The notes under the pieces were generated by a model. It saw nothing but the letters and a program-made list of their open reading frames with translations, was not told where the DNA came from and searched no databases. Shown here in pieces: positions 4,301-42,981 of a stretch of 47,750 nucleotides of DNA. The translations under genes were made by a program, and so were the position numbers. Position 1 is the stretch's first letter, and the number at the start of each line of letters is the position of its first letter. This stretch comes from a phage. The stretch lies in sequence record PZ379542.1; one strand, written 5' to 3'.

Positions 4301-4748
4301 TCTTACTTACAATGGGGTTGAGTACAATTCAGGGATGAGCATGGAACTAACCGGATCTGGTGGCAACGTTCGTAGTCAGTTCATTTTCGATGCTAACAGG
4401 TTCGCAATCAGTAACGGCATTAGCTCTGGATCCGGTCAGTGGTCATTGCCTTTCGTAGTTGAAGGTAATCAGGTATTCATTCAAAGCGCAGTGATTCAGG
4501 ATGGTTCAATCACTAACGCGAAGATTGGTAACCGGATTCAATCTAATAACTACGTGGCTGGTTCTCAGGGTTGGGCCATTGATAAGTCAGGCAGTGCGGA
4601 ACTTAACAATGCAACTGTAAGGGGTAGTCTGTACGCAAGTAACGGCAACTTTGCGTTTAACGGAACCAACAACACTGTTCAGATTAACAATAATGGAATT
4701 ACAGTTAATTTACCGAATGGTGGAAGGGTTGTAGTTGGAGTGTGGTAA
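1323..4748 (+). CDS. tail tip / host specificity protein J-like
   Basis: 1141 aa; YNPETRTYSGTWNGTFKMAYSNNPAWVLYDLVTNQRYG matches the conserved central block of lambda J as recalled from memory. Confidence 0.9.
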   Translation: MAQMVKTNAELCDMAEEIKIYGSKGGQPKQHQPVEQPDNLISVNKVKVLLAVSDGEVDSSFSLKDLYLADVPVQNQNGTYNYEGVTAEFRPGTQSQDYIAGLEGANSEVQVNREIKNSTPYIIAVNNTQLSAIRVKLFWPRLINQESNGDLNGTTCEYAIDLSVDGATYTEYTRGVANGKTTSGYDRSIRVNLPAEFSSALVRVRKITAYSESSTLVNDMQITTYQEVIDAKFRYPLTALVYVEFSSDLFPNGIPTISIKKKWKLIRVPTNYNPETRTYSGTWNGTFKMAYSNNPAWVLYDLVTNQRYGLDQRELGITIDKWGLYEAAQFCDQMVPDGKGGVEPRYLCDVVIQQKVEAYQVIRDICSIFRGLTFYDGEQIGIVVDKPRQPSYVFTNDNVVDGLFNRTFGSDKSLYTVANVQFDDVENSYQQDVEPVFELEATRRFGYNPVDLTAIGCTRRSEANRRGRWLLKTNIRSETISFTTGLEGMIPMIGEVIAVNDQAWSSNYTLNLSGRIESVSGLQVFVPFKIDATAGDRILINKPDGMPEYRTIASVSEDGMTLQLNTAFSFTPQPDTVFAIDKENLALQQYVVTGIQKADSDGDDAFGYSITAVEYDPNKYDEIDYGVNIQDRPSSIVEPDTLLAPENVQVSSYSKVVQGLSVETMVITWDKVQYAKTYTVQWRKENGNWINVPRTANTEVDIEGIYAGIYQVRVRAVSDTENVSAWSDIVSASLTGKIGTPSEPTVITASDDEIFGIRVKWGFPENSADTSYTELQQVADNGDGTYSPENASLLTLVPYPGYEYWHTTLPAGKVIWYRARLIDKIGNVSPWTDFVRGMASDDVSSIIGDIKVDIENSDGFKYLQQNAIESNGAIQAQAESIIENALANDGDVRRMTKENGKRKAEFVQAVNLIADEERARVEALTQLKAQIDDEIVASLTRIDTALAEETQARTTADTALSARLGENEAALNEKLDTYVTADSIGAQYGIKLGLTYNGVEYNSGMSMELTGSGGNVRSQFIFDANRFAISNGISSGSGQWSLPFVVEGNQVFIQSAVIQDGSITNAKIGNRIQSNNYVAGSQGWAIDKSGSAELNNATVRGSLYASNGNFAFNGTNNTVQINNNGITVNLPNGGRVVVGVW

Positions 4749-4754
4749 ATGATT

Positions 4755-4779
4755 AGGCCCCTTTCGGGGCCTTTTCTTT
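4755..4779 (+). terminator. rho-independent terminator
   Basis: ggcccc-tttc-ggggcc hairpin plus T-tract immediately after the J stop. Confidence 0.75.
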
Positions 4780-5741
4780 TAGTAGAAGTTTGGTATGAAT
4801 GGTAGAGCCATTGATATGTTTGTGTCGAATGGGAATCGGGCTCCCGTCTGCGTTGAGTAGTTACCTATTACAGTCCCTGGAACGGCCCTTACGGCGCCGC
4901 CAGACATGCATATGCCTTTGTATCTTAAGTTGTTATACCTTCCAGTAACCCTTGTTGTAGCTCCACACCTAAGTAGTGGGAAGAATCCACCATTTATTGA
5001 CTGGAAATCGTTAGTCATTTGTATAAAGCCACCAAGCACAAACGGTCGCCTAACGCTGGAAAAGACAATCTGGCCCAAGCTGTTAGACATTGTAAGCCCG
5101 GGTCCAGCTATCGGCGGTTCGTTTCTGAATATCACCAGTTGCACGTAAGTGCTTGCCGCCACGTCATCTGTACCAGTGTAGTTTATATTTCGGCACCAAA
5201 TTGTGCTCCCGTCGCTCTCCAGAGAAACTCCTGGGTTATCCCACTTACCAAACGGAACTCCGCTAACTGGAAGTGAAGCCGCGCCGTTAACTTGGATTCC
5301 ACCAACCCACGCCGCAGACATTAACCGCGAATTACTTGAAATTGCCAGGAAGTCAGTTGAGTTCTCAACAAGTATGCCCGGGCTTGAAGAGGATGAAGCA
5401 GCTAGTATCTCAAAGCAATTGCCAGCAAAGTTAATTATACGACCTCTTGCGCCATTGAAGTTACTAAGTTTTATCCTGCCAGTTCCGTCATTTACCTTCT
5501 GGAACCCGTTCATATAATAAACTTCAGGTACAACATCATAAGCGTCAACGTGCACAGCCTTTGTTGGAAGGCAGAATGCTGTTGAGCCTGGGGACATGGT
5601 TAAACCAAAATCCCATGATGATGCTGGCGTCGAAAGTCCATTGGTATTTATTGAGCCAGTCACAGCGGGCGCTCTTAATCCTGCCGTTATTTCCATAGGT
5701 GGCCTTCCATCATTAAGGTCAATCAATATTCCTTGAGGCAT
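4779..5741 (-). CDS. hypothetical protein; candidate receptor-binding / distal tail protein
   Basis: Long minus-strand ORF convergent with J; ATG at 5741 with AAGGAG RBS (ORF-track start at 5750 is GTG); co-oriented with and overlapping the upstream lipoprotein gene. Confidence 0.6.
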   Translation of the reverse strand: MPQGILIDLNDGRPPMEITAGLRAPAVTGSINTNGLSTPASSWDFGLTMSPGSTAFCLPTKAVHVDAYDVVPEVYYMNGFQKVNDGTGRIKLSNFNGARGRIINFAGNCFEILAASSSSSPGILVENSTDFLAISSNSRLMSAAWVGGIQVNGAASLPVSGVPFGKWDNPGVSLESDGSTIWCRNINYTGTDDVAASTYVQLVIFRNEPPIAGPGLTMSNSLGQIVFSSVRRPFVLGGFIQMTNDFQSINGGFFPLLRCGATTRVTGRYNNLRYKGICMSGGAVRAVPGTVIGNYSTQTGARFPFDTNISMALPFIPNFY

Positions 5742-6023: not shown

Positions 6024-6069
6024 AATGATATCTCATCCTTGAGATTTGTCTTTAGCAATTGGTGCTATT
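6024..6069 (-). promoter_or_regulatory. palindrome-containing promoter cassette (AATAGCACnnnTTGCTAAA + extended -10)
   Basis: Minus-strand motif aaatagcaccaattgctaaa; -10 tatcat at conserved spacing; ccattgaaacga leader; upstream of lipoprotein gene. Confidence 0.6.
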
Positions 6070-6741
6070 TGCTATGAAGACTGCTTTTGCAAAACCGCGA
6101 GGAGTTAGACTGTGAATTACCTTTGTCTTCTTACTCTTCCCACCAAGCTTCTTGTATTGGTCAGAGAATCCATCGTTAACGTCCACAGGAATCGCCTCTG
6201 GCCATTTAAACCCATTGCCATACCAAATGCATGTCTTCTTGGGATATGCGTCTTTTGTCTTTATTAGGTCGCTAAAAAACGGGTGTAAATCATCTTCCGG
6301 CAAATAGCCTCCGTATTCATATGGGTGGAAAGTCTTATTAGGCTTTCTCCAGAGTGATGACAGTACGCTGATTGGATTCTCAATCATGTATGGGACTTCG
6401 TACTTATTAGCCAAGTTAAAAGCAACTTTACATGTTTCCGCAGCTTCAATCTGGAAGTTATGGTTAACCAGTCGCTTTCGCTCAAAGTGCCTTGACCCGC
6501 TCACGGCTAAATCCGTACACGGCGGGAACGCTAAAATGATATCAGGCTTCACATCAAAGTCGAAGTTGCCATCTATCCAGGCATTAACGTAGGTGATGTT
6601 CTCATGTTCAAATTTTGCATTTAAATCCCCGCAACTACCGTGGTCAGACTCATCAAAGTTGAAACAGTAGCACTCGTGACCAGCTTCGGCCCAATCTTTC
6701 ACAGCCAGCCCTGAACCATCAAATAAAGACCAGATAACCAT
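6052..6741 (-). CDS. DNA (cytosine-5) methyltransferase-like protein
   Basis: Motif I-like SLFDGSG, motif IV-like FPPCTDLAVSG, motif VI-like MIENP; ATG at 6741 with GAGAGAGG RBS; C-terminus NSTNC encoded by the repeat motif. Confidence 0.65.
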   Translation of the reverse strand: MVIWSLFDGSGLAVKDWAEAGHECYCFNFDESDHGSCGDLNAKFEHENITYVNAWIDGNFDFDVKPDIILAFPPCTDLAVSGSRHFERKRLVNHNFQIEAAETCKVAFNLANKYEVPYMIENPISVLSSLWRKPNKTFHPYEYGGYLPEDDLHPFFSDLIKTKDAYPKKTCIWYGNGFKWPEAIPVDVNDGFSDQYKKLGGKSKKTKVIHSLTPRGFAKAVFIANSTNC

Positions 6742-6772
6742 TTTGAAATCCTCTCTCGTTTTTTTGTGTGAC

Positions 6773-6818
6773 CAACTATACATGGTTTTGCGGATTAGTT
6801 TTAGCTATTCGTGCTGTT
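6773..6818 (-). promoter_or_regulatory. palindrome-containing promoter cassette (variant)
   Basis: Minus-strand cagcacgaatagctaaa; tgtatagt extended -10; upstream of methyltransferase-like gene. Confidence 0.5.
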
Positions 6819-6904
6819 GGTTACGCGTAACCGATGTAACTCTATGTATACCATATGCATCAGCGGGAAATCGTATACGCCTAGTTACGCTTTGATACGC
6901 CATA

Positions 6905-6967
6905 GTTACATAATAATATCTATATATATCAACCATTTACTCTTATTATTATTATTATATATATTAC
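6905..6967. repeat. AT-rich conserved block, copy 1 (gttacataataatatctatatatatcaacc...ttattattattat...)
   Basis: Near-identical to 26178-26242; (tta)n(ta)n tract. Confidence 0.85.
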
Positions 6968-7282
6968 TGTGTATATCATGTAACTACTGTTCTGGAGTGT
7001 TCCGGTTATAATTTTTATATAATGTGATTTTATACAGTATTGCGTGGCGCATATAACTATGCACCCTCCGCAAAAATCGGTATACACGGTATACGCACTA
7101 TTTACATTGAGCTATAGCTGGGCTGAAGTGGTGAAAAACGTAACTAATGGCAATGTCTACACATAGTTACGGATTTATACGCGTATACTTGATTAATTAA
7201 TCGGTGATACCAATTGGACTGTGTGTCTTGCGTGCGGCATCATTAACGCATCGAAAGCAAACAACAACAGAGAGATACAGAA

Positions 7283-7480: not shown

Positions 7481-8452
7481 ATGACATTTAAAGTTTATAC
7501 GAACGACGAGCTAACCAATGAAGCCTATCACGAAGAGAAAGACCATATCTCTGGCTCTTCGCTGGCTGAGATTCTTGCTACTTCTCCAGCAAAATGGAAA
7601 TTTAAGCAGCGCAGCAACTCTAGCGCAGCACTTAAATTTGGCACACTAAGTCACTGCATGATGCTAGAGCGCGAGGTATTTGACTTAACATACATGCGAG
7701 CTACTGACTTTGACGAAGTGGAAGGATTGATTACTAGCCAAACGGCTTTATCCGCAGCGCTTAAAAAAGTTGGAGTTTCAGGCACGTCAGGTAAGGGATA
7801 TAGCGAGCTCGTGGAGATGATGTATAAATCTGGTGAGGATTGGCCTGTTAAATGGTTAATTGAGCAGCAGGAGAGCGCTGAGGCGTTAATTAGTGGCAAA
7901 GAGCTCGTTACTGCGAAAGATTACGATAAGGTAATCTCAATGCGCGAGGTTCTGACTAATATCCCAGCTTACGATGCGATTATTAACTCACCAACAGCAC
8001 AGAAAGAGCTATCAATCTTTGGTGAGATTCTTGGGTGTGGTGTTAAGGTTAGGCTTGATCACGTGGATGTTGTTGATGGCGTGGTTTTCATTACTGACTA
8101 CAAGACGACGGCGGACGCAAGCCCGAGAGGATTTGGCAAGTCAGCTTATGACCATGGATACCTGTGCAAAATGAGCCTTCAGCGTGACTTGTTCGTGAAG
8201 GCATTTAACGAGAAGCGTAAGGTTGTGGTTCGACTTCTGGCGCAGGAAAAAACGGAGCCTTACTTACCAATGAGCTACACGCTTACAGATGAACAGCTTC
8301 GCATTGGTCGTTTACAATATTGTGAGGCACTAGCAACATACAAACAGTGCAAGGAGCTTGATGTATGGCCTGGGTATAGCAATGGGATTACAGAGCAAGA
8401 TTTGATGATTCCTGAGTGGGTAAGTAAGCAGTATCAAGAACTTCTAAAATAG
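7481..8452 (+). CDS. PD-(D/E)xK family exonuclease (recombination exonuclease)
   Basis: VRLDHVDVVDGVVFITDYKT D...D/E-x-K signature; adjacent to ERF and SSB. Confidence 0.7.
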   Translation: MTFKVYTNDELTNEAYHEEKDHISGSSLAEILATSPAKWKFKQRSNSSAALKFGTLSHCMMLEREVFDLTYMRATDFDEVEGLITSQTALSAALKKVGVSGTSGKGYSELVEMMYKSGEDWPVKWLIEQQESAEALISGKELVTAKDYDKVISMREVLTNIPAYDAIINSPTAQKELSIFGEILGCGVKVRLDHVDVVDGVVFITDYKTTADASPRGFGKSAYDHGYLCKMSLQRDLFVKAFNEKRKVVVRLLAQEKTEPYLPMSYTLTDEQLRIGRLQYCEALATYKQCKELDVWPGYSNGITEQDLMIPEWVSKQYQELLK

Positions 8453-8493
8453 CACTAATTGCTAAAGACAAAATCAAAAGGTGAGGTATGATT
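8448..8493 (+). promoter_or_regulatory. palindrome-containing promoter cassette
   Basis: aatagcactaattgctaaa; tatgat at -10 position; ctgaaacga leader; motif TAG is the stop codon of the exonuclease gene. Confidence 0.6.
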
Positions 8494-9648: not shown

Positions 9649-9658
9649 TAAAAGATAA

Positions 9659-9681
9659 AGCCCCTTTCGGGGCTTTTTTTA
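9659..9681. terminator. bidirectional rho-independent terminator
   Basis: agcccc-tttc-ggggct hairpin with T-tract on both strands, between convergent SSB and tailspike genes. Confidence 0.75.
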
Positions 9682-12207
9682 TGCAAGAGAAACTCTTGAG
9701 TTTGCAAATATCAAGGCGTCCCTTTGATTATCAAATTCTACAACAAAATAATCAGCAAGGCTTAATACCATACCAGTTAATCCATTGAGGTTAATGTTAA
9801 GGTTTGCAACGCCAGAAACCGAAGCCTTACCAACGCCAAATGTATGAACCCACTTACCAGCTTCTGTGAATACAGTTCCTAATGATGCGCTACCAGAAAT
9901 GTTTATAATACCATCAGCACCGCCTTGAATCCTGTTTGCAGAAATACCCCAAGCATACCATTTGCCGGAAGTTATATTAAAGCTACCATTTATCAATTCG
10001 TACTGAGCCGCACCAGCCAATTCGTAGTATCCAGATGATTGCGAGTGTATACCCCTTGTATCAGAACCTTCACTTGACGACCCTGTTCCACCAAAGTTGT
10101 TCCCACCAGTACCAAAAGGCCTCCTTACTAAAACAGTTCCGGAATCAGGGTTAAAAACTCGACCTTTAGTAACATATCCTCTAACAGATAAGTCAGATGT
10201 ACCCGTTATCTTGGCTGTCTGTGATACCAGTGACTCAACTATAACGTTTGATGTTGAAGAGCCATTCAGGTATGCATCCTTAGCAAAAATAATACTGTTC
10301 GAATCAAGAGAGAAACTTTGGTGCCCATCAGCGTTATCAAACCTGCACCCATAAGTTACAAGGTTTGAATTTGATAACTCAATGTTATTAATATAAGAAT
10401 GCTCAGCAAAGAAAACGGACGTATCGATGAGCTTCAAAACCCTTGGGAGTTCAGCTCCCTCACCTACGTTAATTGCCCCACCAGTTGCTATCGCTTCAAA
10501 CCATACGTTAGACAATCCGCAAGGTGATGTTGGGCAATCTCCAGGTTTATTCTTTAACCTTATACCGCCGCCAGCAGAGGCCTCCATTATTGAATCCCTA
10601 ATCCACCACCCACCAATTCCTCCAGCGCCAGGGTTCGTTGCGCTACTTGTGCTTGTCGCATCTAGCATTACTGAATATTGAGAGATTGTATCTGAGTGGT
10701 ATCCGTATAAAGTGTCCGCTCCTATATGCATTTCGTCATGAGCTTTTGCTCGATACCCGTAATTCGCATTTCTAATACTTACGTTTCTGTAGGTATTTCC
10801 AATGTTGCCAGCATTTTTCCTTATACCAACATCCAGGTCATTGAAGTAAAGCCTATCCAATACAACCCTTCCAGCATAAGGGCCATCCGGGAATTGAAAG
10901 CCGTTATTACCTTGTATTGCAGTACCTGTAAACTGCAAATCCGATAAATGCTTTTGCCTCCAGTGCGGAACCGATAGCGTTGAGGTGAGTCCGGTTTCAA
11001 AAGGTTTAACACTTATTACGGTATTATATCCAGAGCCTGATATGTTCCTGCCAGCAAAGGAGTAGTTATTACTCTCATAAGTTCCCGGGCTTATAACTAC
11101 CGACCCGCCATCGCCAGCGGCTTCTATTGCTGAAGATATTGAGCCGCTATAGCTTGATGTGCTTTTTGAATCTGTATTTAAAATTGATGATAATTCGCTC
11201 TTTGAGTAAACATCAAGGTTGGTTCTTGCTTCTGCTTTATCTGCAACATCAGATAAATTCAATGATTTTTGAAAAGTCTCATTTTTTGAGTAAACATCAA
11301 GCAAGCCTCTTACTCGCTGGGCGCTAGCGTCGCCAACCTTACTTCCTGATGCGACATAAAGAGCCTCTCTTGAATAGTAAGTTTTGTTTGGTGCCGTGCC
11401 AGTCTGAGTTAAATCAATCAACCTGTACGTATTATCGGATCCGGTTGATGCTGACACTTGTATGTTCTTAACACCAGTAATCCCCCTTGATGACTTAACC
11501 TCAATCGCACAAAGCGTGCTATCGGAGTAGGTTATATTTATCACCTCTGGAGCGTTGATCATTGCTGACTTTTGGCATAGGTATCTAGCTCCTGATTTGA
11601 AATCAAACGTATTCCAGTCAAGTTCTGTCAACTGAGGTGTAAACGAGCCACCGATACCCATATTGGCAAGAGTTACCATTGTGCCAGCATCACCAGCACT
11701 ATTAATTGCCTCAATAGTAGCATCTCTCGCTGATGTGGTTGTATCCCTTGCGCTAACGGCAGTAGCGGCGCTCTCTGCGGCAGCAATCTGGCTAGCTAAA
11801 GACTCGGCAGCCCCTGTTACTGATTGGTTTGCTAATTGCTCGAAGCGAGGCCAATCGAAATTATCTTGCCCGATAAATTGCAGCAAACTTTCAATAGAAG
11901 TCTCCTTTGACTGATAGTAACGCAGAGTCTCAGCAACATCCTGAGCTAAACCCTGAACGGTAATGCCATCGTGAGCAAGAATCGCGTAACCAGTTCCGGC
12001 AGGAACAGTTTCAGAATTAGGGTTGTAAACATTAATCTGAGTGTCGCTGATGATTTCAGAGATGGTATAAATTTTAAGTGGACTGGTTTTAAAAATAATG
12101 GTTGCACCTACACGAATAAGTGTAAGTGGTGCTTTCCATGTTGTCCGGACGCCAGTAACCTCGCCATTTGCGGCTAGCGACGCTGTTCCTAAGTCATAAA
12201 TTGCCAT
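9679..12207 (-). CDS. tailspike / tail fibre protein with predicted beta-helix (pectate-lyase-like) domain
   Basis: 842 aa from ATG 12207 (GGAGA RBS); Gly/Ser/Asn/Thr-rich repetitive central region. Confidence 0.75.
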   Translation of the reverse strand: MAIYDLGTASLAANGEVTGVRTTWKAPLTLIRVGATIIFKTSPLKIYTISEIISDTQINVYNPNSETVPAGTGYAILAHDGITVQGLAQDVAETLRYYQSKETSIESLLQFIGQDNFDWPRFEQLANQSVTGAAESLASQIAAAESAATAVSARDTTTSARDATIEAINSAGDAGTMVTLANMGIGGSFTPQLTELDWNTFDFKSGARYLCQKSAMINAPEVINITYSDSTLCAIEVKSSRGITGVKNIQVSASTGSDNTYRLIDLTQTGTAPNKTYYSREALYVASGSKVGDASAQRVRGLLDVYSKNETFQKSLNLSDVADKAEARTNLDVYSKSELSSILNTDSKSTSSYSGSISSAIEAAGDGGSVVISPGTYESNNYSFAGRNISGSGYNTVISVKPFETGLTSTLSVPHWRQKHLSDLQFTGTAIQGNNGFQFPDGPYAGRVVLDRLYFNDLDVGIRKNAGNIGNTYRNVSIRNANYGYRAKAHDEMHIGADTLYGYHSDTISQYSVMLDATSTSSATNPGAGGIGGWWIRDSIMEASAGGGIRLKNKPGDCPTSPCGLSNVWFEAIATGGAINVGEGAELPRVLKLIDTSVFFAEHSYINNIELSNSNLVTYGCRFDNADGHQSFSLDSNSIIFAKDAYLNGSSTSNVIVESLVSQTAKITGTSDLSVRGYVTKGRVFNPDSGTVLVRRPFGTGGNNFGGTGSSSEGSDTRGIHSQSSGYYELAGAAQYELINGSFNITSGKWYAWGISANRIQGGADGIINISGSASLGTVFTEAGKWVHTFGVGKASVSGVANLNINLNGLTGMVLSLADYFVVEFDNQRDALIFANSRVSLA

Positions 12208-13245: not shown

Positions 13246-13291
13246 CACTATACACAATGTATAGCGCCACTGTTTATCAATTCGTGCTATT
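13246..13291 (-). promoter_or_regulatory. palindrome-containing promoter cassette (variant TTGATAAA)
   Basis: Minus-strand aaatagcacgaattgataaa; tgtgtatagt extended -10; upstream of primase. Confidence 0.6.
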
Positions 13292-13769
13292 TCCCTTGCT
13301 CTTTATCTTTTCGTGCTGCTTCGTTAGCGGCCTTAATCTTGCGCCATGAGCGACACTCTGGTTTAGTTGCTAGCTCAGCCTCAGTAACAACACGCAGCAT
13401 ATGACGCTTCTTGCAACGTAGAGTTAGCGGTTTCCCGTTACCGTCGAATTGCAGATCTGGTCGGCAGAATGTAGCGCGAAAACCTTCTCCATTTCGCTTA
13501 TAGTAGTTGTGCGACAACTGAGCGCCACGCGCAGAAATCATCCCGCGATCAAACCATTGCTCTACAGTCTGGTGAGATACATTTAACTGCTTGGCGATAT
13601 TGGCCTTCGTGCCGTAGAAATCAAGAACCATCTCCAGACGAGCTCGTAGCCCAGCCTTTACTTCATCTTTCAATACGTAGTAGCCTGACGGTCGTTTGCG
13701 CTGTTTCTTGTCTTGCGTGCGGATGGTTCCGTTATTGCCGTTGATAGTTCGCTTGTCAATTTCACACAT
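13287..13769 (-). CDS. HTH DNA-binding protein (candidate transcriptional regulator)
   Basis: Helix-turn-helix GTKANIAKQLNVSHQTVEQWFDRG; basic termini. Confidence 0.65.
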   Translation of the reverse strand: MCEIDKRTINGNNGTIRTQDKKQRKRPSGYYVLKDEVKAGLRARLEMVLDFYGTKANIAKQLNVSHQTVEQWFDRGMISARGAQLSHNYYKRNGEGFRATFCRPDLQFDGNGKPLTLRCKKRHMLRVVTEAELATKPECRSWRKIKAANEAARKDKEQGK

Positions 13770-13865: not shown

Positions 13866-14675
13866 ATGCTTCCAGTAGAGCGCTTAGTGGCGAACTTTGA
13901 TAAAGAGAAAATTAAACAGATTCAGAAAGATTACCAGTTTGGAGACATAACGCCTTACGAATTCCAGTGCGTGACATTTGACGCAATCGGTAAGGCTATT
14001 GGCAAGTACGAAGCGCCATTCATCGCAGACCTGTCGGTGTCTGCTGGTAAGACAATTATACTCGCCATGATTGGGAAACGAATGGAACAGCTTGGCCTTC
14101 CTTACATGGTCCTATCTCGCCAGTCAGAGATTATCAGCCAGAACGCAGAGGAACTTCGTAATTTCGGCATCCGTAATAGCGTCTATTGCGCTGGCCTTAA
14201 CGTTAAATCAGTTTACTACCCAACCATAGTGGCTAGCGAGGGTACGGCTGCCAACGGCTTATTTAAGGGGCTTGGTGACTATGTTCCGGCTGTTATCGCG
14301 ATAGATGAGTGCTTAACTGGAGACACGATGATAACCACCGATTCAGGGATGATGAGGATTGATAGCGAAGACCTTATCAATCATAAAATAAAATGCATAA
14401 ACGAAAGCACTGGTGATTACTTCTATCATAAGCCAAAAAGAGTTTTTACTAATGGTGTAAGACATGTATCATCAATTAAATTAGAAAGCGGAGAGGAAAT
14501 AAAATGCACGAGTACACACAAACTTTATTCGAACGGCTGCTGGGTAGGAGCGGGAAAACTTCGTATTGGGATGAATCTGTCGCTAGACGGCTCGCAGGAC
14601 AAATTTACGAAAAAGCTCCTGCGTGCAAGTGTGGCTGTGGTGAAAAAGTTATGCCGCATTCAAGCAAGGGGTTAG
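13866..14675 (+). CDS. SF2 helicase N-terminal part (Walker A, DE of DECH) fused to intein N-terminal splicing domain
   Basis: SVSAGKT Walker A; AIDE then CLTGDT (intein block A) and TSTH...GCWVGAGKLRIGMNL (block B); frame ends at TAG 14674-14676. Confidence 0.8.
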   Translation: MLPVERLVANFDKEKIKQIQKDYQFGDITPYEFQCVTFDAIGKAIGKYEAPFIADLSVSAGKTIILAMIGKRMEQLGLPYMVLSRQSEIISQNAEELRNFGIRNSVYCAGLNVKSVYYPTIVASEGTAANGLFKGLGDYVPAVIAIDECLTGDTMITTDSGMMRIDSEDLINHKIKCINESTGDYFYHKPKRVFTNGVRHVSSIKLESGEEIKCTSTHKLYSNGCWVGAGKLRIGMNLSLDGSQDKFTKKLLRASVAVVKKLCRIQARG

Positions 14676-15449
14676 GCGTACTTCTTAAGAACCCTTTCGA
14701 TTTCTATTTGGATTACAGAACGGGGCATCATAATTCAACCGTCAACCCATCAATGGAGGTTGATGACTTTTTACATCAAAACATTCTTGCGGCAATGGCT
14801 GGTGATGGTTGCTTGATTAAAAATACAGAAAAAGGAACGCATAGGCTATCTTGGAATATGGGAAATAAGGAGCACGCACTAAGCAAGGTTGAAAGGTTTG
14901 CAAAACTAAACCCTAGATACAGGGAGAAGAAAAACCCTGGATTTGGCGACAACTGGTTTTGCGTATCAACATCATGTACGAAAGTTCTGGATTCATATGC
15001 TGATAAGTACGGAAATTCTAAGGATGGTTACGATATTGGAAAGATATGCAGAGAGCTTAATCCAGTTGGTTGGGCTGCTTACTTTGGTGATGATGGTCAT
15101 TGCACTGTAAGCTCAGGGAAGAGGGTTGTAGAAATCCACACCGAATCATTTAGCAGGCGTGAAGTTCAATCAGTAGTTGATGCGCTAATAGCATTTATTG
15201 CTAATGACGGAGTTAAGGTTAGAAGCTATATTGGCGGCAAGAAAAAGAGAGAGCTTTACTCAGTATCAATAACAACGAGGTCGGCACAAGATGAGTTTTT
15301 TAAGAGAATTAGTAAGCACATGGAAAATGGCGTGGAATACAAAATCAAGCAAAATTAAAGACATCTCACCCATTGGCAAGGAACTTGTTTGGGATATAGA
15401 GATGCCTGAGCACCATAATTTCATTGCTGACGGGGTCGTGGCACATAAT
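14310..15449 (+). mobile_element. intein in helicase motif II (DE|CH), LAGLIDADG type; split or frame-shifted
   Basis: Starts Cys 14310; ends ...GVVAHN 15449 followed by +1 Cys; exactly 1140 nt; the endonuclease domain is in a different frame. Confidence 0.75.
14504..15358 (+). CDS. LAGLIDADG homing endonuclease (intein-associated; separate frame)
   Basis: Two motifs ILAAMAGDGC and WAAYFGDDGH about 100 aa apart; GGAGAGG RBS 7 nt before ATG 14504 (alternative ATG 14651). Confidence 0.65.
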   Translation: MHEYTQTLFERLLGRSGKTSYWDESVARRLAGQIYEKAPACKCGCGEKVMPHSSKGLGVLLKNPFDFYLDYRTGHHNSTVNPSMEVDDFLHQNILAAMAGDGCLIKNTEKGTHRLSWNMGNKEHALSKVERFAKLNPRYREKKNPGFGDNWFCVSTSCTKVLDSYADKYGNSKDGYDIGKICRELNPVGWAAYFGDDGHCTVSSGKRVVEIHTESFSRREVQSVVDALIAFIANDGVKVRSYIGGKKKRELYSVSITTRSAQDEFFKRISKHMENGVEYKIKQN

Positions 15450-17000
15450 TGCCACATGGTGGACCATATGGATATCGTAGAAGCTGAAGAGAATGAGGAA
15501 ACATTCGAGCAGATGAGCACGAAGAAGGGTGAGATGGTCTTTAAGGATGGTGTGAATACCGGGCTTCTTGGCACTGGTCGCGCGCAATACACGTTAATCA
15601 TTACCGAAATGAAGCGTCGATGCAAGGAGAAGTACGGTCGCGAACTTCGTATCTTTGGGTTAACTGGTAGCCCGTACCGTAACAACGACCACATTGTAGT
15701 TAGTAACCCAAATGTCCGTGGATTCTGGCGCAAAACTGTAATGCAAGTGCCAACCAGCTACCTTGTTGACTTGGGGTTTGTTGTTCCTACTGTCTACGGT
15801 GAAGTTGGTGATTTGGGCTACGACCTTAGTGAGTTCACTCCTGATGGAAGTGATGGGGTTAAGGACTTCAGCAAGAAAGAAATGGATGCGATGGCTGCAA
15901 AGATTCACGAAAACCAAACGATGACACAAAAGATAATGGGATTTGCTGCTAAGTTTATGGAAACAAGGAATGCTGCATTGGTAACTTGCGCTGGCAAACA
16001 GCATTGCGAGGAGGCGGCAGCCGCACTTCCAGAAGGTGTTACTTGGGCGATAGTTACCAACTCCACTGGTGAGAAGAAGCGTAGAGAGATACTTGAGAAG
16101 GCAGCCAACGGAGAATATAAGTTCATATTTCAGATTGGTTGCCTCACAACTGGCGTAAACTGCCCCCCGTGGGATACAAGCATTATCCTGAGGAAGGTTG
16201 GTAGCATTACTCTACTCATTCAGTTGCTTGGTCGTGGTATGCGTATCCTTAAGAAGAAGCACAAAGAAGCTGGAATGGTAAAAGATGACCATGTTGTTCT
16301 TGATTTTGCTGGAACGCTTGATGATATGGCTGAACTTTACTTCGACCCAATTATAGAAGAGGTACAAGACCAGAAATTTAGGTCAGCAAGAAAGCGTGGT
16401 GATGAGCCAAGAATCTGTCCGGTATGCTCTTATGGGAACTCTCCATTCGCCAGGCGCTGCAATAACGTAATTGACGGGAAGCGCTGTGAGCACTTCTTTC
16501 AGTTTAGACTGTGTGAAGATATAGCGGACCCACAGACCAAAGCTATCATCAAGAAAGGATGCGGTGAGAAGAATGATATTGCAGCTAAGAATTGCAGATG
16601 CTGTGGTGAGATGCTCATAGACCCGAATGCTAAGTTATCAGGAAAAATGTATCGTAAGGGGGACTGGTTGCGAGTTTATGACTTCAAGATTGGGTTAACA
16701 AAGAACCAGTCAGGGATTGTTGCTTCATATGAGGTAATGGCTCATAGTGGAGATAAGTTCCGAGCTTATGAAACATTCTTCCCGGAGTCAGACCATCGTG
16801 TTTGTTCTGTCAAATGGAAGGCGTTTTGCTCAACTCACATCGAGAACAGGACTGAGGCTTTTAGGATTGGCAGATTGCGTAATGCTAAAATGATTATGAC
16901 AAATGCACATCTTTTCCGTGCGCCGCTAAGGATTACGCACCGCAAGAATCAGAAGTCGCAAGATATTATCGCCAACAAATCATTTACGATGGAGGATTGA
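15291..17000 (+). CDS. intein C-terminal splicing domain fused to helicase C-terminal part
   Basis: KIKDISPIGKELVWDIEMPEHHNFIADGVVAHN|C (blocks F/G); then LTGSP and QLLGRGMR helicase motifs and Cys-rich zinc-ribbon-like C-terminus. Confidence 0.8.
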   Translation: MSFLRELVSTWKMAWNTKSSKIKDISPIGKELVWDIEMPEHHNFIADGVVAHNCHMVDHMDIVEAEENEETFEQMSTKKGEMVFKDGVNTGLLGTGRAQYTLIITEMKRRCKEKYGRELRIFGLTGSPYRNNDHIVVSNPNVRGFWRKTVMQVPTSYLVDLGFVVPTVYGEVGDLGYDLSEFTPDGSDGVKDFSKKEMDAMAAKIHENQTMTQKIMGFAAKFMETRNAALVTCAGKQHCEEAAAALPEGVTWAIVTNSTGEKKRREILEKAANGEYKFIFQIGCLTTGVNCPPWDTSIILRKVGSITLLIQLLGRGMRILKKKHKEAGMVKDDHVVLDFAGTLDDMAELYFDPIIEEVQDQKFRSARKRGDEPRICPVCSYGNSPFARRCNNVIDGKRCEHFFQFRLCEDIADPQTKAIIKKGCGEKNDIAAKNCRCCGEMLIDPNAKLSGKMYRKGDWLRVYDFKIGLTKNQSGIVASYEVMAHSGDKFRAYETFFPESDHRVCSVKWKAFCSTHIENRTEAFRIGRLRNAKMIMTNAHLFRAPLRITHRKNQKSQDIIANKSFTMED

Positions 17001-17001
17001 T

Positions 17002-17421
17002 ATGAAAATCACAGACAAAGGTGATTACCTCGAGTTCTATGGCGGACCGGTGAAGTCATGCCCAAAGGAAGACGATGAACAAATCTTCTGCTCTGATTGG
17101 GTGAAATACAACTATCCGCAGATTGTTTACTGGCACACGATTAACGAAAATAAAAAGAGCATTGGTCAAGCAAGAAAAGACCAAGCCAAGGGGCTTCTCA
17201 AAGGTGTGTCAGACTGCTTATTTCTGATACCTGAGTCATTGCGTGGCGGTTATCCATTTGGCGCCATAGAGTTAAAGAGGGCTGGTAAAACGCAAGCAAG
17301 CCCAGTTAGCAATGAGCAAAAGTCATTCCTAAAAAGCGTAAGTGAATCAGGCGGTTTCGCAGCGGTGGCTTATGGAAGAGAGGGTTTTCTTGCGGCATTC
17401 GCAGAGATGATAAGAAAATAG
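17002..17421 (+). CDS. VRR-NUC domain nuclease
   Basis: GVSDCLFLIPE...GAIELKRAGKTQASPVSNEQKSF PD-(D/E)xK-like VRR-NUC pattern; start overlaps helicase stop. Confidence 0.65.
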   Translation: MKITDKGDYLEFYGGPVKSCPKEDDEQIFCSDWVKYNYPQIVYWHTINENKKSIGQARKDQAKGLLKGVSDCLFLIPESLRGGYPFGAIELKRAGKTQASPVSNEQKSFLKSVSESGGFAAVAYGREGFLAAFAEMIRK

Positions 17422-17462
17422 CACGAATTGCTAAAGACGAATTGGTGAGTTGGTGTATTATC
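17417..17462 (+). promoter_or_regulatory. palindrome-containing promoter cassette
   Basis: aatagcacgaattgctaaa; tgtattat; ctcatcgaaacga leader; motif TAG is the VRR-NUC stop. Confidence 0.6.
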
Positions 17463-21922: not shown

Positions 21923-22305
21923 AGGCTGCGTTAATTGCTGCGGTAATTATACTTTCTGGTTGCTCGGCAACATCTGCGCTGACCGGGTTGATTGGTAGTA
22001 AGCCAGAGATTAGCGCTCAAGCAGGTGCGGAGAATAACAAGGTTGGAGTAGGGCTAACTAATAAGGTTGATTCAAGTTCCAGCGCAAAGGCTGAAGTGAA
22101 GAACTCTAAGGTTGACACTCTTGATAGTTCAAGCGGTAAAAAGACTTCTGATAACTCAATCAAGGCATCAACAATCACGGCTGAGAAGATTGAAATCACC
22201 AACAATGATTCGTCTGCAATCCCGTGGATTGGGAGTGGAATCATGTTTTGCGTCATCATCATTCTGCTCTTAATGATATTCAGGAAAAACAAAAAAGCCC
22301 CGTAA
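21919..22305 (+). CDS. unimolecular spanin (u-spanin)
   Basis: Lipoprotein signal IILSGC plus C-terminal TMD IMFCVIIILLLMIF; directly after endolysin as in phage T1. Confidence 0.75.
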   Translation: MKAALIAAVIILSGCSATSALTGLIGSKPEISAQAGAENNKVGVGLTNKVDSSSSAKAEVKNSKVDTLDSSSGKKTSDNSIKASTITAEKIEITNNDSSAIPWIGSGIMFCVIIILLLMIFRKNKKAP

Positions 22306-22319
22306 TGGGGCTATTTTTA
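22291..22319. terminator. bidirectional terminator
   Basis: gcccc-gtaat-ggggc hairpin flanked by A-tract and T-tract between convergent genes. Confidence 0.7.
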
Positions 22320-22652
22320 TGCAAACAATTCGTCATCACTCATGTTGGATATGTTCATCATCTCACTGATGTAGTCACTGGACCTACCTTCAAAACTCAT
22401 GAATTCAAACTGGAATGGTCGCTTGCTAGAGTCTTTGGACCAGTACACCCCATTAACTCCATCAAGATAACCAGCAGTTAGCATTCTCGCCATAAACTCC
22501 TTCGAGCAGCTTGATGCAAAATACCTTTCATCAACACCAGCAGCTTTGGCCATCCTTGCACAATCCTTGTGCTTGTAGATGAATCTTGCCAGATGTTGGC
22601 GGTTGAAGTTTTTATATCCTTCGCAGAAATTGTACAGGTCGAGCAGATACAT
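22317..22652 (-). CDS. hypothetical protein
   Basis: 111-aa ORF at the end of the leftward operon. Confidence 0.55.
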   Translation of the reverse strand: MYLLDLYNFCEGYKNFNRQHLARFIYKHKDCARMAKAAGVDERYFASSCSKEFMARMLTAGYLDGVNGVYWSKDSSKRPFQFEFMSFEGRSSDYISEMMNISNMSDDELFA

Positions 22653-25834: not shown

Positions 25835-25861
25835 ATCTATCTCCTCGTTGTTGATGGATTC

Positions 25862-25907
25862 ATTATGGTATCGTCGCCAGTTTTTGTCATTAGCAAAAAG
25901 TGCTATT
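25862..25907 (-). promoter_or_regulatory. palindrome-containing promoter cassette (leftward early/middle promoter)
   Basis: Minus-strand gaatagcactttttgctaa; cataat; tccatcaacaacga leader. Confidence 0.6.
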
Positions 25908-25920
25908 CGTTGGATTTATA

Positions 25921-26026
25921 GATTGTTGCAGCTATTGCAATGATTATCATGATTATTGCACATATAGCAATATTGCATGGAATGCAATGATGTTTTTGAT
26001 TGTTGCATAATTTGCAATGATTGATG
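25921..26026. repeat. iteron-like array of TTGCA(AT) repeats incl. palindrome ATTGCAAT
   Basis: Seven TTGCA cores at 25925, 25935, 25956, 25973, 25983, 26003, 26013; TGCAATGAT x3; GATTGTTGCA x2. Confidence 0.7.
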
Positions 26027-26177
26027 TGGGGTGAATGAATGGTGGATGAACTACCATACAAGTTGATTTTGATTCTTGCTGAGCCAATTTGGATATACAC
26101 GTTATCGAAGTTATGGTGTGTATATGAGGTGCGCTTCCGAAGAATCATACACGCCTACCACGCGAGATTACGCAATG

Positions 26178-26242
26178 GTTACATAATAATATCTATATAT
26201 ATCAACCTTTTACTATATTATTATTATTATTATATATATGTA
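26178..26242. repeat. AT-rich conserved block, copy 2
   Basis: Near-identical to 6905-6967. Confidence 0.85.
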
Positions 26243-26506
26243 TGTATATGGTGTAGATTGGTCGTATGGATGGGTCGATAGTTTTTCTATGAAAACTACT
26301 AATTTTATCTATATAGATACATATGCATACCCCCGGCGAATCCGCGTAAAATCTTACACAGGGTAATTACACCGGCTATAGCTTGGCTGAGAGGTCAAAA
26401 AGCGTAACCAATGCAGATATAAACACAACATAACACTTGATAACGCGTATATTCATGATACCATGGTTTCATCTTAACGAAGAGCAACCAATCAGGAGTA
26501 ACGAAT

Positions 26507-27028
26507 ATGTCAGAACATAAAGAAGCAGTAAGTTTGGGTGAAATCATTCGATACATGGCGAGTCAGGCGCTAAAGTCAGAAGACAAAGTGTGCACAGTCC
26601 CTGTGACCATGATTGCTCGTCAATACTTCGGCATGAGTCGTGAGACGTTCGTATCGCTAAGTGGTGAGGAGGTTCTACCTGGTGGTGAATACCACATGCC
26701 AAAACTAAAATCGTCATACGTTTCAAACACCGTAAGCCGAATGCCTGAGATTAAGGCGGCTGACGTGCGCTCAAGGTTCTCACTTAGTTTTACCGACTTT
26801 GAGGGCGAGAGTGAGACATACTGCGCATCACTTAGCCTGGTTCCTGGCGCTGTAAAATCCGGCTCAAGAAGCAAAGCAGAGCAAGAGAAGGAGGCGGCTA
26901 CCATTGAAAGGTTCAAGGCTCGATTGTTGAAACTATCACCAAGCGTCGCTGGTCTTGAAGGTGATGAACTTAAGGGTGCAGTATCAATGATTAACGCATA
27001 CCAGGAAATGATTAAGGAGACTAAATAG
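26507..27028 (+). CDS. hypothetical early protein
   Basis: 173 aa; AGGAG RBS; first gene of rightward early operon. Confidence 0.6.
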   Translation: MSEHKEAVSLGEIIRYMASQALKSEDKVCTVPVTMIARQYFGMSRETFVSLSGEEVLPGGEYHMPKLKSSYVSNTVSRMPEIKAADVRSRFSLSFTDFEGESETYCASLSLVPGAVKSGSRSKAEQEKEAATIERFKARLLKLSPSVAGLEGDELKGAVSMINAYQEMIKETK

Positions 27029-28353: not shown

Positions 28354-28493
28354 TTTACGTTCACACGTACTATACAGGTAAGTTTAACAGCGTTAAGCAC
28401 GTGCGAGTTTATGAATCCTACAAGGAAGCAAAAGCTCAGATGGATGTTCTTGGTGGTGCCGTGCATCGATGCGAAGTAGTTGAAGAATTATAA
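28350..28493 (+). CDS. hypothetical small protein (47 aa)
   Basis: ATGA overlap start; stop TAA abuts cassette. Confidence 0.4.
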   Translation: MIYVHTYYTGKFNSVKHVRVYESYKEAKAQMDVLGGAVHRCEVVEEL

Positions 28494-28538
28494 ATAGCAC
28501 GAATTGCTAAACATGAATTGGGATAGGTTGTTATACTT
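28493..28538 (+). promoter_or_regulatory. palindrome-containing promoter cassette
   Basis: aatagcacgaattgctaaa; ttgttatact extended -10; tcccatcaaaacga leader. Confidence 0.6.
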
Positions 28539-29840: not shown

Positions 29841-30077
29841 ATGTTCGGGTTAGACGACGCATACTTTAACGCAGTTAAGCGACAGGCTGACAAGCTGAAT
29901 GACGAATACGGCAAATTGGGCGCAAAAAAGAAAGATGATAAGGTTGTTGCGGCGCTTATCACTCAGATATGGGGGCCGGTATCCACGATAATCGCACGTG
30001 ATAAGTTTGTGTGGATAGCGGGCTATCGTCGAGGGCGTGTGGGTCATGATGAGAATGGGAATAGCCTTTATGAGTGA
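29841..30077 (+). CDS. hypothetical protein
   Basis: ORF with GAGAGG RBS. Confidence 0.5.
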   Translation: MFGLDDAYFNAVKRQADKLNDEYGKLGAKKKDDKVVAALITQIWGPVSTIIARDKFVWIAGYRRGRVGHDENGNSLYE

Positions 30078-30171
30078 TATTATCATTGATTTAGTACTAA
30101 CTCTGATCGCCATCGGATTGGCTATGGCTACGGCAATTGGGATGATTTTCTTCATATTTACATTGAATTAG
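30070..30171 (+). CDS. hypothetical small hydrophobic peptide (33 aa)
   Basis: MSDIIIDLVLTLIAIGLAMATAIGMIFFIFTLN; lies between two copies of a ~28-bp direct repeat. Confidence 0.35.
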   Translation: MSDIIIDLVLTLIAIGLAMATAIGMIFFIFTLN

Positions 30172-30179
30172 GTTAGAGA

Positions 30180-41955: not shown

Positions 41956-41960
41956 AAATT

Positions 41961-41983
41961 AACCCTCTTCGGAGGGTTTTTTA
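41961..41983 (+). terminator. rho-independent terminator
   Basis: ccctc-ttcg-gaggg + T6. Confidence 0.8.
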
Positions 41984-41985
41984 TT

Positions 41986-42976: not shown

Positions 42977-42981
42977 AGCGC

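What the first reader, a model, noticed from the sequence alone, without database searches (positions are those of the whole stretch)
6784..7282. Two homologous divergent regulatory regions with AT-rich (tta)n(ta)n tracts (copy 1)
Seen in sequence: 6905-6967 and 26178-26242 share a near-identical ~63-bp block (gttacataataatatctatatatatcaacc.tttact.ttattattattat.atatat). A second conserved block follows ~140-200 bp downstream in both (gctatagctgggctgaagtggtgaaaaacgtaactaatg at 7111-7149 versus gctatagcttggctgagaggtcaaaaagcgtaaccaatg at 26376-26413), as does acgcgtata...TGATACCA nearer the gene start. Copy 1 also has repeated TTACGC/TATACGC units and the perfect palindrome TTACGCGTAA (6821-6830). 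Each copy sits at a divergence point upstream of a rightward operon that lacks the palindrome cassette. Inference: duplicated early promoter and/or origin modules, with the AT tract as UP element or unwinding element.
Basis: partly seen in the sequence, partly recalled or inferred. Interest (0 to 1): 0.6.

Follow-up and report, generated by a model that had tools for sequence, protein, structure and literature searches.

The report
Twin origin-like modules in T1-like phage
This T1/Rtp-like coliphage has two ancient, strongly conserved copies of a non-coding module made of short, helically phased repeats around the most easily melted DNA in the genome. They look most like a pair of replication origins, which have never been located in this classic phage family.

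Summary
The intergenic regions 6784-7282 and 25835-26506 share a collinear module (blastn 89 bp at 86.5%, E=5e-26; core 60 of 66 columns identical).

The window is an Rtp-like Drexlerviridae coliphage. Both copies are present at the same two divergent gene junctions in every relative examined. T1 and Hanrivervirus have the same layout at those junctions, but with different sequence.

Each module contains:
- a distal palindrome (WTAC-RY-GTAW);
- four WTACRC units at 10-11 bp spacing, whose positions are kept to within 1 bp in both copies;
- a ~60-bp TA-rich tract with an exact IHF consensus at its centre;
- further units to the right of the tract.

The two TA tracts are the two least stable duplex segments of the genome in all eight genomes tested.

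The recognisable sigma-70 promoters lie at the edges, outside the shared core, so the AT tract is not their UP element. I found no RNA family, no base-pair covariation, no coding potential and no DnaA boxes.

Best reading (about 0.45): twin iteron-plus-unwinding-element replication origins, comparable to SPP1 oriL/oriR. Main rival (about 0.3): an IHF-assisted control region for early promoters. No binding, unwinding or initiation was shown, and the binding protein is unidentified.

The parts
6799..6819 (-). Degenerate copy of the family's 21-nt 'ATAGCAC..TTGnTAAA' repeat. It belongs to the leftward gene and marks the left margin of region 1. It is not part of the shared module.
   Evidence: D3; conserved as TTTAGCTATTCGTGCTATT in relatives; the repeat is described for TLS/T1/Rtp in PMC11447400.
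6819..6832 (.). Distal palindrome GGTTACGCGTAACC, made of two inverted WTACRC units, 95-96 bp left of the core anchor.
   Evidence: The pattern WTAC-RY-GTAW occurs 1-2 times per genome in six Braunvirinae genomes, and all 10 occurrences lie in the modules. The position is conserved.
6875..6911 (+). Four same-orientation units (ATACGC, TTACGC, ATACGC, TTACAT) at 10-11 bp spacing, abutting the AT tract. These are the iteron-like array.
   Evidence: positions 6875, 6885, 6895; units at -42, -32, -22 and -11 from the anchor in all 10 copy-1 sequences, and at matching positions in copy 2.
6905..6967 (.). AT/TA-rich core of copy 1, (TTA)n(TA)n: the candidate DNA unwinding element.
   Evidence: 60 of 66 columns identical to copy 2. 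90-98% mean pairwise identity among 10 genomes. Second least stable 40- and 60-bp duplex segment of the window, and least stable at 100 bp (z 4.4-5.3).
6927..6939 (+). Exact match to the IHF consensus WATCAANNNNTTR (TATCAACCATTTA) at the centre of the core.
   Evidence: 4 matches in the genome, 2 of them in the two cores. The bases are invariant in relatives. Both Hanrivervirus modules carry AATCAATAAGTTA.
6969..6984 (+). 16-mer GTGTATATCATGTAAC, immediately right of the tract: two tandem TGTAWA units 9 bp apart.
   Evidence: 100% conserved in 10 genomes. T1 has TTGTATATCGTGTAAC at the same relative place.
7080..7098 (-). Inverted partner of the 16-mer (GTATACACGGTATACGCAC).
   Evidence: RNAalifold pairs columns 14-28 with 129-143. 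These pairs show no change on both sides, so this reads as an inverted DNA repeat and not an RNA helix.
7111..7149 (+). Second shared block of copy 1, containing the AGCTATAGCT palindrome and a CGTAAC unit.
   Evidence: 33 of 40 columns identical to 26376-26413. Conserved islands.
7176..7187 (.). Proximal palindrome TATACGCGTATA, 27 bp upstream of the rightward -35.
   Evidence: Relatives have CACGCGTAAG or CACACGTAAA here.
7215..7243 (+). Probable sigma-70 promoter of the rightward p64-RecE-Erf-SSB operon: TGGACT-17-CATCAT, followed by a CATCGAAA leader.
   Evidence: Alignment. The homologous Rtp site TGGACT-17-TATAGT scores 9 of 12. T1 has TTGACT-16-TATAAT, 11 of 12. The window's own version scores only 8 of 12 and was not listed.
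25884..25907 (-). 21-nt cassette for the leftward operon, at the left margin of region 2.
   Evidence: D3; 95% conserved.
26095..26105 (.). Distal palindrome-like element ATACACGTTAT of copy 2, at -95 from the anchor.
   Evidence: Relatives have ATACGCGTAW here.
26147..26184 (+). Phased units of copy 2 (ATACAC, CCACGC, TTACGC, TTACAT) at 10-11 bp spacing.
26178..26242 (.). AT/TA-rich core of copy 2: the candidate unwinding element.
   Evidence: Least stable 40- and 60-bp segment of the window (z 5.1-5.6). 80-91% conserved, while the flanks are at 40-62%.
26200..26212 (+). Exact IHF consensus TATCAACCTTTTA.
26243..26258 (+). Tandem TGTATA/TGTAGA units right of the tract (ATGTATATGGTGTAGA). This is the counterpart of the copy-1 16-mer.
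   Evidence: In Rtp copy 2 it reads ATGTATATCATGTATA.
26376..26413 (+). Second shared block of copy 2.
   Evidence: Conserved only in part of the relatives.
26437..26464 (+). Sigma-70 promoter with extended -10 (TTGATA-16-TACCAT, preceded by TG) for the rightward early operon. The palindrome-like TAACGCGTATA (26441-26451) lies in its spacer.
   Evidence: Conserved in relatives as TTGAYN...TGnTAnnAT. Pattern hit.
26507..27028 (+). DUF7174 gene, the first gene right of copy 2: a fast-evolving protein found across the family. It is a weak candidate for the site-specific binding protein.

Best explanation
Each region is a composite. Outward-facing promoters sit at its two margins. Between them lies a conserved protein-binding module of about 330-350 bp. 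From left to right the module has:
- a distal palindrome;
- four helically phased WTACRC units;
- a ~60-bp TA-rich tract, the least stable DNA in the genome, with an IHF consensus at its centre;
- further units in both orientations;
- a proximal palindrome next to, or inside, the rightward promoter.

I read the two modules as the phage's two replication origins. Alternatively, as in SPP1, one is an origin and the other an origin-like site that binds the same protein.

Proposed mechanism (inferred): a phage-encoded sequence-specific protein occupies the phased units on one face of the helix. IHF bends the tract. The TA tract then melts, so that the phage helicase (DUF3987 type) and primase can be loaded, and host Pol III elongates. 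The adjacent early promoters may give transcriptional activation. The palindromes built from inverted units may let the same protein regulate those promoters.

Shown here: the sequence anatomy, its conservation, the phasing, the duplex instability, and the same architecture across the family. Inferred: protein binding, unwinding and initiation.
For: (a) Two copies under selection. The core is 90-97% identical in both positions in all Braunvirinae genomes fetched. Copies group by position, not by genome: c1-c2 identity is 75.7% within a genome and 75.6% between genomes, while c1-c1 is 92%. So this is an old duplication kept by selection, not by gene conversion.

(b) Geometry. Units lie at -95, -42, -32, -22 and -11 from the core anchor in both copies, to within 1 bp (2 bp for the -42 unit of Rtp copy 2), even where copy-2 flanks are only 40-60% identical.

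(c) Motif clustering. The two modules are the two densest WTACRC clusters in the genome: 10 and 9 per 400 bp, against a mean of 0.86.

(d) Instability. The two tracts are the two least stable 40-, 60- and 100-bp segments of the window (z 4.4-5.6; the third is at 3.6-3.8). The same holds, without any tuning, in Rtp, Msk, 12397V, T145P1, A110b, T1 and Hanrivervirus A14b.

(e) Property conserved where sequence is not. T1, Hanrivervirus and Webervirus have TA-rich tracts flanked by short phased repeats at the same junctions. The enriched words are shared by the two modules of a genome but differ between lineages: TGTATA/TTACGC/GTTACA versus TGTTAT/TGTGTG, and Webervirus copy 1 has ATCTTAC.

(f) An exact IHF consensus lies at the centre of both cores and of both Hanrivervirus modules.

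(g) The promoters are separate from the core.

(h) Precedent. SPP1, another pac-type virulent siphovirus, has two origins, each made of direct repeats plus an AT-rich unwinding element (PMC6316719). The origin of T1-like phages is reported as not found (PMC7718038; PMC11447400).

(i) The neighbouring genes are replication and recombination genes: RecE/Erf/SSB to the right of copy 1, and the DUF3987 helicase in the leftward operon of copy 2.
Against: - There is no experimental evidence of initiation, binding or unwinding.
- The units are only 6-7 bp long, much shorter than classical 18-22 bp iterons. The motif was defined after looking at these regions.
- The same anatomy (IHF site flanked by operator arrays between divergent promoters) also fits a transcriptional control region.
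- The IHF consensus is not enriched genome-wide (4 found, 3.4 expected) and is absent from the T1 tracts.
- GC skew follows transcription direction and gives no independent origin signal.
- Copy 2 is much less conserved outside its core than copy 1.
Confidence: 0.45

Rival explanations
1. Early-transcription control regions. The modules are operator arrays for a phage regulator, assisted by an IHF-induced bend. They switch the two cassette-less, host-RNAP-dependent rightward promoters (and/or the leftward ones) on or off, as in the O1-IHF-O2-O3 region between the divergent Pe and Pc promoters of phage Mu. The TA tract serves as a flexible hinge, or holds extra promoters.
For: - Both modules lie between divergent promoters.
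- Palindromes made of inverted units lie 27 bp upstream of the copy-1 -35 and inside the spacer of the copy-2 promoter.
- The only two rightward operons without the 21-nt cassette start here.
- Weak hexamer pairs exist in the tract (TTTACT-18-TATATT). Phage EC3a was annotated with two in-silico promoters there.
- A Cro-like HTH protein is encoded in the genome.
- The Mu comparison comes from memory of the literature.
Against: - Promoter-like pairs in the modules are no more frequent than in shuffles.
- None falls in the T1 copy-1 tract.
- The putative -35 TTTACT is not kept in copy 2 of relatives (TTTAGT, TTTATC, TTTAGA). Conservation stops at TTTA, which is the IHF part.
- A regulatory hinge does not obviously need to be the least stable DNA of the genome in every lineage.
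- This reading is not exclusive of the origin reading, because origins are often regulated by, and regulate, flanking promoters.
Confidence: 0.3
2. Packaging-related sites. The module is part of pac recognition by the small terminase, comparable to the R sites plus the IHF site I1 of lambda cosB.
For: Copy 2 lies about 200 bp from the point where the T1 terminal repeat and several GenBank records begin. An IHF site flanked by short repeats resembles cosB (from memory).
Against: - The genome-end position maps to the separate TTGCA-repeat cluster 25903-26040. That cluster is absent from copy 1.
- Copy 1 is 19 kb away, next to recE. A second pac would give a second packaging series, which is not reflected in the record starts.
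Confidence: 0.05
3. Genes for small non-coding RNAs or small peptides.
For: Long conserved intergenic sequence. Mechanical ORFs overlap the regions: 6811-7011, 6929-7087, 26039-26281 and 25903-26148.
Against: - No Rfam family other than the tRNA at 30772.
- The RNAalifold covariation term is -0.46. The long helix shows no change on both sides, and conservation comes as short islands separated by variable spacers.
- The only terminator-like hairpin (6992-7005) is not conserved.
- Relatives have 1-, 2- and 4-nt indels, which break any reading frame.
Confidence: 0.04
4. Recombination hot spots or other DNA-structural sites (for example entry points for RecE/Erf-mediated concatemer formation), or a neutral relic of a duplication.
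For: Easily melted DNA next to the recombination operon. T1 is known to form concatemers by recombination (from memory).
Against: - A neutral relic is excluded by the 90-100% conservation of the core across genera, while flanks and coding DNA are near 80%.
- No known recombination system uses such arrays.
Confidence: 0.05

Closest known systems
Bacillus phage SPP1 oriL and oriR
   Same: A virulent siphovirus with pac-type headful packaging and two origin sequences kilobases apart. Each has direct repeats bound by one phage protein (gp38) plus an AT-rich unwinding element. oriR lies in a long intergenic region. The second copy is thought to stall forks and trigger the switch to recombination-dependent concatemer synthesis (PMC6316719; PMC3485210).
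   Different: No sequence or protein homology was detected. SPP1 oriL lies inside gene 38, whereas both modules here are intergenic at divergent promoters. The units here are 6-7 bp at 10-11 bp spacing. The binding protein is unknown and nothing has been tested experimentally.
Iteron origins of plasmids (pSC101, mini-F ori2/RepE, R6K gamma/Pi) and lambda ori
   Different: Classical iterons are 18-22 bp. There are no DnaA boxes here. The fold similarity is below any safe threshold. The module has no match in 72,556 plasmids or 5,426 E. coli genomes.
Phage Mu early operator region (O1-IHF-O2-O3 between Pe and Pc)
   Same: An IHF site flanked by arrays of regulator sites between divergent promoters. 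This is the model for the main rival explanation (from memory).
   Different: Mu has one such region, bound by a known repressor, and no extreme TA tract. Here there are two copies in a virulent phage.
T7 primary origin and T4 oriF/oriG (promoter plus AT-rich unwinding element)
   Same: An AT-rich, easily unwound segment close to promoters in a virulent phage that encodes its own primase and helicase (from memory).
   Different: In those origins the promoter sits directly upstream of the unwinding element and its transcript primes synthesis. Here the convincing promoters point away from the tract and lie 100-270 bp from it.
21-nt 'aaATAGCACnnnTTGnTAAAA' repeats of T1-like phages (TLS paper)
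   Same: They occur in the same intergenic regions, at the left margins, and their function is equally unknown (PMC11447400).
   Different: They are a different element: about 20 dispersed copies, each oriented with its downstream gene. The twin modules are not mentioned in that paper, which states that no origin-like repeats were found.

Membership tests
Iteron-type (theta) replication origin | Array of direct repeats for an initiator, phased with the helix | tested here: met
   Four same-orientation WTACRC units at 10-11 bp spacing abut the tract in both copies and in all relatives. This is sequence evidence only. The units are shorter than classical iterons.
Iteron-type (theta) replication origin | Adjacent AT-rich DNA unwinding element | tested here: met
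   The two tracts are the two least stable duplex segments in the window and in 7 related genomes. Actual unwinding was not tested.
Iteron-type (theta) replication origin | Cognate initiator protein that binds the repeats | tested here: inconclusive
   The candidates are DUF7174 and the Cro-like HTH. Fold matches are weak. Their divergence does not track the repeat words.
Iteron-type (theta) replication origin | Replication starts there, or the element supports autonomous or phage-dependent replication | not testable with these tools
   This needs marker-frequency analysis, 2D gels or origin cloning.
Iteron-type (theta) replication origin | Host-factor sites (IHF, DnaA) as in many enterobacterial origins | tested here: inconclusive
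   An exact IHF consensus lies in both cores and in Hanrivervirus, but not in T1. There is no DnaA-box enrichment and no perfect box.
Sigma-70 promoter with UP element | -35 and -10 hexamers 16-18 bp apart, conserved in relatives, inside the shared core | tested here: not met
   Only 9 of 12 matches, no more than in shuffles. The -35 is not conserved in copy 2 of relatives. There is none in the T1 copy-1 tract.
Sigma-70 promoter with UP element | A/T tract at about -40 to -60 of a promoter | tested here: not met
   The identifiable promoters are about 100-270 bp from the tract.
Non-coding RNA gene | Match to a known family, or a conserved structure with compensatory changes | tested here: not met
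   No Rfam hit. The covariation term is -0.46, and the long predicted helix shows no change on both sides.
pac site of T1-like phages | Coincides with the genome end or the start of the terminal repeat | tested here: not met
   The ends of T1, Rtp, FP and OzMSK map to the TTGCA cluster at 25903-26040, not to the shared module. Copy 1 has no such cluster.

The most novel reading that the evidence does not exclude
The twin modules are the long-sought replication origins of T1-like phages (Drexlerviridae). DUF7174, the fast-evolving first gene next to copy 2, is a new winged-helix initiator. It binds the phased 6-7-bp units as an origin complex together with IHF, and it represses its own promoter through the inverted units in the promoter spacer. 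The second copy, next to recE-erf-ssb, acts as in SPP1, either as a second origin or as a fork barrier that triggers recombination-dependent concatemer synthesis.
Probability: 0.2. Interest if true: 0.75.

Novelty: new member of a known kind. Interest (0 to 1): 0.6.

Why it matters
T1 is one of the seven classic T phages. Its relatives are common laboratory and fermentation contaminants and are also phage-therapy candidates. Even so, where and how their DNA replication starts is unknown. Two recent genome papers state that no origin could be found.

This work gives two precisely delimited, family-wide candidate sites, with defined repeat units, an unwinding tract and an IHF site. That turns the question into a handful of direct experiments. 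If the modules are instead early-promoter control regions, they define the switch governing the only two host-polymerase-only operons. That would matter for engineering these phages.

Tried and rejected
- Rfam and tRNA scans found only tRNA-Arg at 30772.
- RNAalifold on 10 copy-1 sequences showed no meaningful covariation.
- DnaA boxes are not enriched.
- The terminator-like hairpin at 6992-7005 is not conserved.
- GC skew only mirrors transcription direction.
- IMG/VR scans by pattern and by RecE or DUF7174 gave few loci, so GenBank phage records were used instead.
- The module has no homologue in E. coli genomes or plasmids.
- The low-complexity filter hid copy 2 in the 121-nt search.
- The Cro-like HTH as binder: its recognition helix is conserved across lineages with different repeat words. 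It is more likely tied to the family-wide 21-nt repeat.
- The 243-aa neighbour at 6052-6783 is a Dcm-like methyltransferase that is absent from many relatives. It is not a binder.
- Literature searches found no transcript start map, no origin mapping and no description of these modules for T1-like phages. The Rtp genome paper is not held.

Full report
**Identity of the window.** The window is a complete or nearly complete genome of an Rtp-like coliphage (Drexlerviridae, Braunvirinae). Its closest records are Escherichia phages ES and AN_ECEAS. Gene order matches Rtp and T1.

- Region 1 (6784-7282) is the gap between a leftward gene and the rightward operon p64-RecE-Erf-SSB. The leftward gene here is a Dcm-like methyltransferase at 6052-6783. 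In Rtp it is the Cor-type lipoprotein rtp45.
- Region 2 (25835-26506) is the gap between the leftward operon that contains the DUF3987 helicase and the rightward operon of small early-type genes. That rightward operon begins with a DUF7174 protein (rtp1) and runs to the terminase genes.

**The observation.**
- The two regions give a blastn match of 89 bp at 86.5% (E=5e-26), plus a second collinear match of 52 bp at 81% (E=5e-7).
- The local alignment score is 130, against 25 +/- 3.4 for dinucleotide shuffles.
- The core blocks are identical in 60 of 66 columns, and the second blocks in 33 of 40.
- Weaker homology (54-62%) joins them, so the duplicated unit spans about 6818-7150 and 26092-26415.
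- The palindrome is real and extends to GGTTACGCGTAACC (6819-6832).
- The 21-nt cassette occurs in both regions only in the leftward orientation.

**Conservation.** I extracted both regions from ten or more related genomes and aligned them.
- Copy 1 is 84-100% identical from 6824 to 7043, with a fully invariant stretch at 6964-6983.
- Copy 2 is strongly conserved only in the AT core (26187-26246, 80-91%) and in a separate island at 25887-26006. The rest is at 40-62%.
- The regions do not code for protein. Relatives differ by 1-, 2- and 4-nt indels.
- Copies group by position, not by genome. Identity between copy 1 and copy 2 is 75.7% within a genome and 75.6% between genomes, while copy 1 versus copy 1 is 92%. 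So the duplication predates the radiation of these phages. The similarity is kept by selection on both copies, not by gene conversion.

**Anatomy.** A single short motif, WTACRC (GYGTAW on the other strand), fills both modules.
- There are 10 and 9 copies per 400 bp, against a genome mean of 0.86. These are the two densest clusters in the genome.
- Measured from an anchor inside the core, units sit at -95/-96 (as a palindrome), -42, -32, -22 and -11. This holds in all ten copy-1 sequences, and at matching positions in copy 2, to within 1 bp (2 bp for the -42 unit of Rtp copy 2).
- The four proximal units are in the same orientation at 10-11 bp spacing, so they lie on one face of the helix and abut the AT tract.
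- Right of the tract lies the invariant 16-mer GTGTATATCATGTAAC (two units 9 bp apart). Its inverted partner follows 110 bp further on.
- A second palindrome (TATACGCGTATA, 7176-7187) lies 27 bp upstream of the rightward -35. In copy 2 the corresponding TAACGCGTATA sits in the spacer of the rightward promoter.
- In six Braunvirinae genomes the 10-mer pattern WTAC-RY-GTAW occurs once or twice per genome, and all ten occurrences are in the modules.
- The centre of each core matches the IHF consensus WATCAANNNNTTR exactly. These are 2 of the 4 matches in the genome.

**The AT tract.** With nearest-neighbour energies, the two tracts are the two least stable 40-, 60- and 100-bp segments of the window (z 4.4-5.6; the next is at 3.6-3.8). 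The same calculation, run unchanged on Rtp, Msk, 12397V, T145P1, A110b, T1 and Hanrivervirus A14b, picks the two homologous junctions as the top two in every genome. Words such as TATATA and GTATAC are almost confined to the modules.

**Beyond the subfamily.** T1 (Tunavirinae) has no alignable sequence with the window here. Even so, both of its syntenic gaps (cor|recE and ST1|ST77) hold a TA-rich tract flanked by GTGTAAC, ATTACGCC and CGATTAACA repeats at 9-10 bp spacing. T1 also has TTGTATATCGTGTAAC at the place of the window's 16-mer.
- Hanrivervirus (aaroes, A14b) has the same layout, with other words (TGTTAT, TGTGTG) enriched in both of its modules and AATCAATAAGTTA (another exact IHF consensus) in both tracts.
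- Webervirus Skenny has ATCTTAC/GGTAAGAT repeats and two TTACGTAA palindromes around a TA tract upstream of recE.

So the architecture and the physical property are conserved across the family. The repeat words are shared by the two modules of a genome but differ between some lineages. That is what one expects of sites for a phage-encoded specific DNA-binding protein.

**Promoters.** The convincing sigma-70 promoters lie at the right margins, outside the near-identical core.
- Copy 2: TTGATA-16-TACCAT with an extended -10 at 26437-26464. It is conserved in relatives.
- Copy 1: TGGACT-17-CATCAT at 7215-7243. The equivalents are TGGACT-17-TATAGT in Rtp and TTGACT-16-TATAAT in T1.
- The AT tract is 100-270 bp from any of these promoters, so it cannot be their UP element.
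- Hexamer pairs inside the tract are weak and no more frequent than in shuffles. The supposed -35 is not kept in copy 2 of relatives. None is found in the T1 copy-1 tract.

**What it is not.**
- It is not a known RNA, and it shows no covariation.
- It has no DnaA boxes.
- It has no homologue in E. coli chromosomes or plasmids.
- It is not the pac site. The T1 terminal repeat and the Rtp, FP and OzMSK records begin in the neighbouring TTGCA-repeat cluster (25903-26040), which copy 1 lacks.

**Interpretation.** The features are phased direct repeats abutting the most meltable DNA of the genome, an IHF site inside that DNA, inverted units at the flanking promoters, and lineage-specific repeat words. 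Two copies are kept for a long time, next to replication and recombination genes. Together this is the anatomy of iteron-type origins.
- The closest precedent is SPP1. Its oriL and oriR are each direct repeats plus an AT-rich unwinding element bound by gp38. Its second copy is thought to stall forks and trigger concatemer synthesis.
- The published view for T1-like phages is that no origin has been found.
- I therefore favour twin origins, with confidence of about 0.45.
- The main rival (about 0.3) is an IHF-assisted operator region controlling the flanking early promoters, as in phage Mu. The two readings are not exclusive.

**The binding protein** remains unidentified.
- The Cro-like HTH (13287-13769) has a recognition helix conserved across lineages with different words. 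It fits the family-wide 21-nt repeat better.
- DUF7174 is the first gene right of copy 2 in Braunvirinae and Hanrivervirus, and weakly in T1. It evolves fast.

**Verdict.** The finding is a new member of a known kind, and it makes an old open question about T1-like phages directly testable.

Noticed in passing
window 25903-26040: A cluster of (A)TTGCA(AT) units, including a 46/47-nt tandem pair (25926-25971 and 25973-26018), 84-96% conserved in relatives. The start of the T1 2.8-kb terminal repeat and base 1 of the Rtp, FP and OzMSK records fall in the homologous cluster. It is probably the pac / first-cut region, and it is distinct from the shared module.
   Followed up: partly
window, about 20 sites, e.g. 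8447-8476, 17416-17445, 28492-28521, and 6795-6823 and 25884-25912 on the minus strand: The 21-nt 'aaATAGCACnnnTTGnTAAAA' repeat of T1-like phages (function unknown according to PMC11447400). It is an inverted repeat, TAGCA-N5-TGCTA, just upstream of an AAGACA-type -35. It is followed by a CATAAT-type -10 and a conserved CATCGAAA leader (D1-D3, D9 and D12). The family-wide Cro-like HTH at 13287-13769 is a plausible binder.
   Followed up: partly
window 13866-17000: The SNF2-type helicase gene is interrupted by an intein (N and C splicing parts in ORFs 13866-14675 and 15291-17000, which share a frame). A LAGLIDADG endonuclease ORF, 14504-15358, lies in a different frame. This may be a decaying intein or a sequencing frameshift.
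   Followed up: partly
window 6052-6783 (-): A 243-aa Dcm-like DNA methyltransferase (phrog_757; Pfam DNA_methylase below cut-off) abuts copy 1. It is present in only some relatives (JeanPiccard, BEK phages, EC3a, A110b) and absent from Rtp and ES.
   Followed up: partly
window 30051-30079 and 30176-30204; tRNA at 30772-30847: An exact 29-nt direct repeat 125 bp apart (D20), upstream of the single tRNA-Arg(CCT).
   Followed up: no
L013 (MG065688), L026 (MG065640), PP134917: GenBank records named Campylobacter phage A110b and A14b, and Pseudomonas phage PsgS01F, are T1-like coliphage genomes (Braunvirinae or Hanrivervirus). Their host labels are doubtful.
   Followed up: no
window 4747-4783, 9650-9686, 22288-22324, 41953-41989, 42968-43004: A family of GC-rich hairpins with T runs on both sides, which look like bidirectional intrinsic terminators at convergent gene ends (D4).
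   Followed up: no
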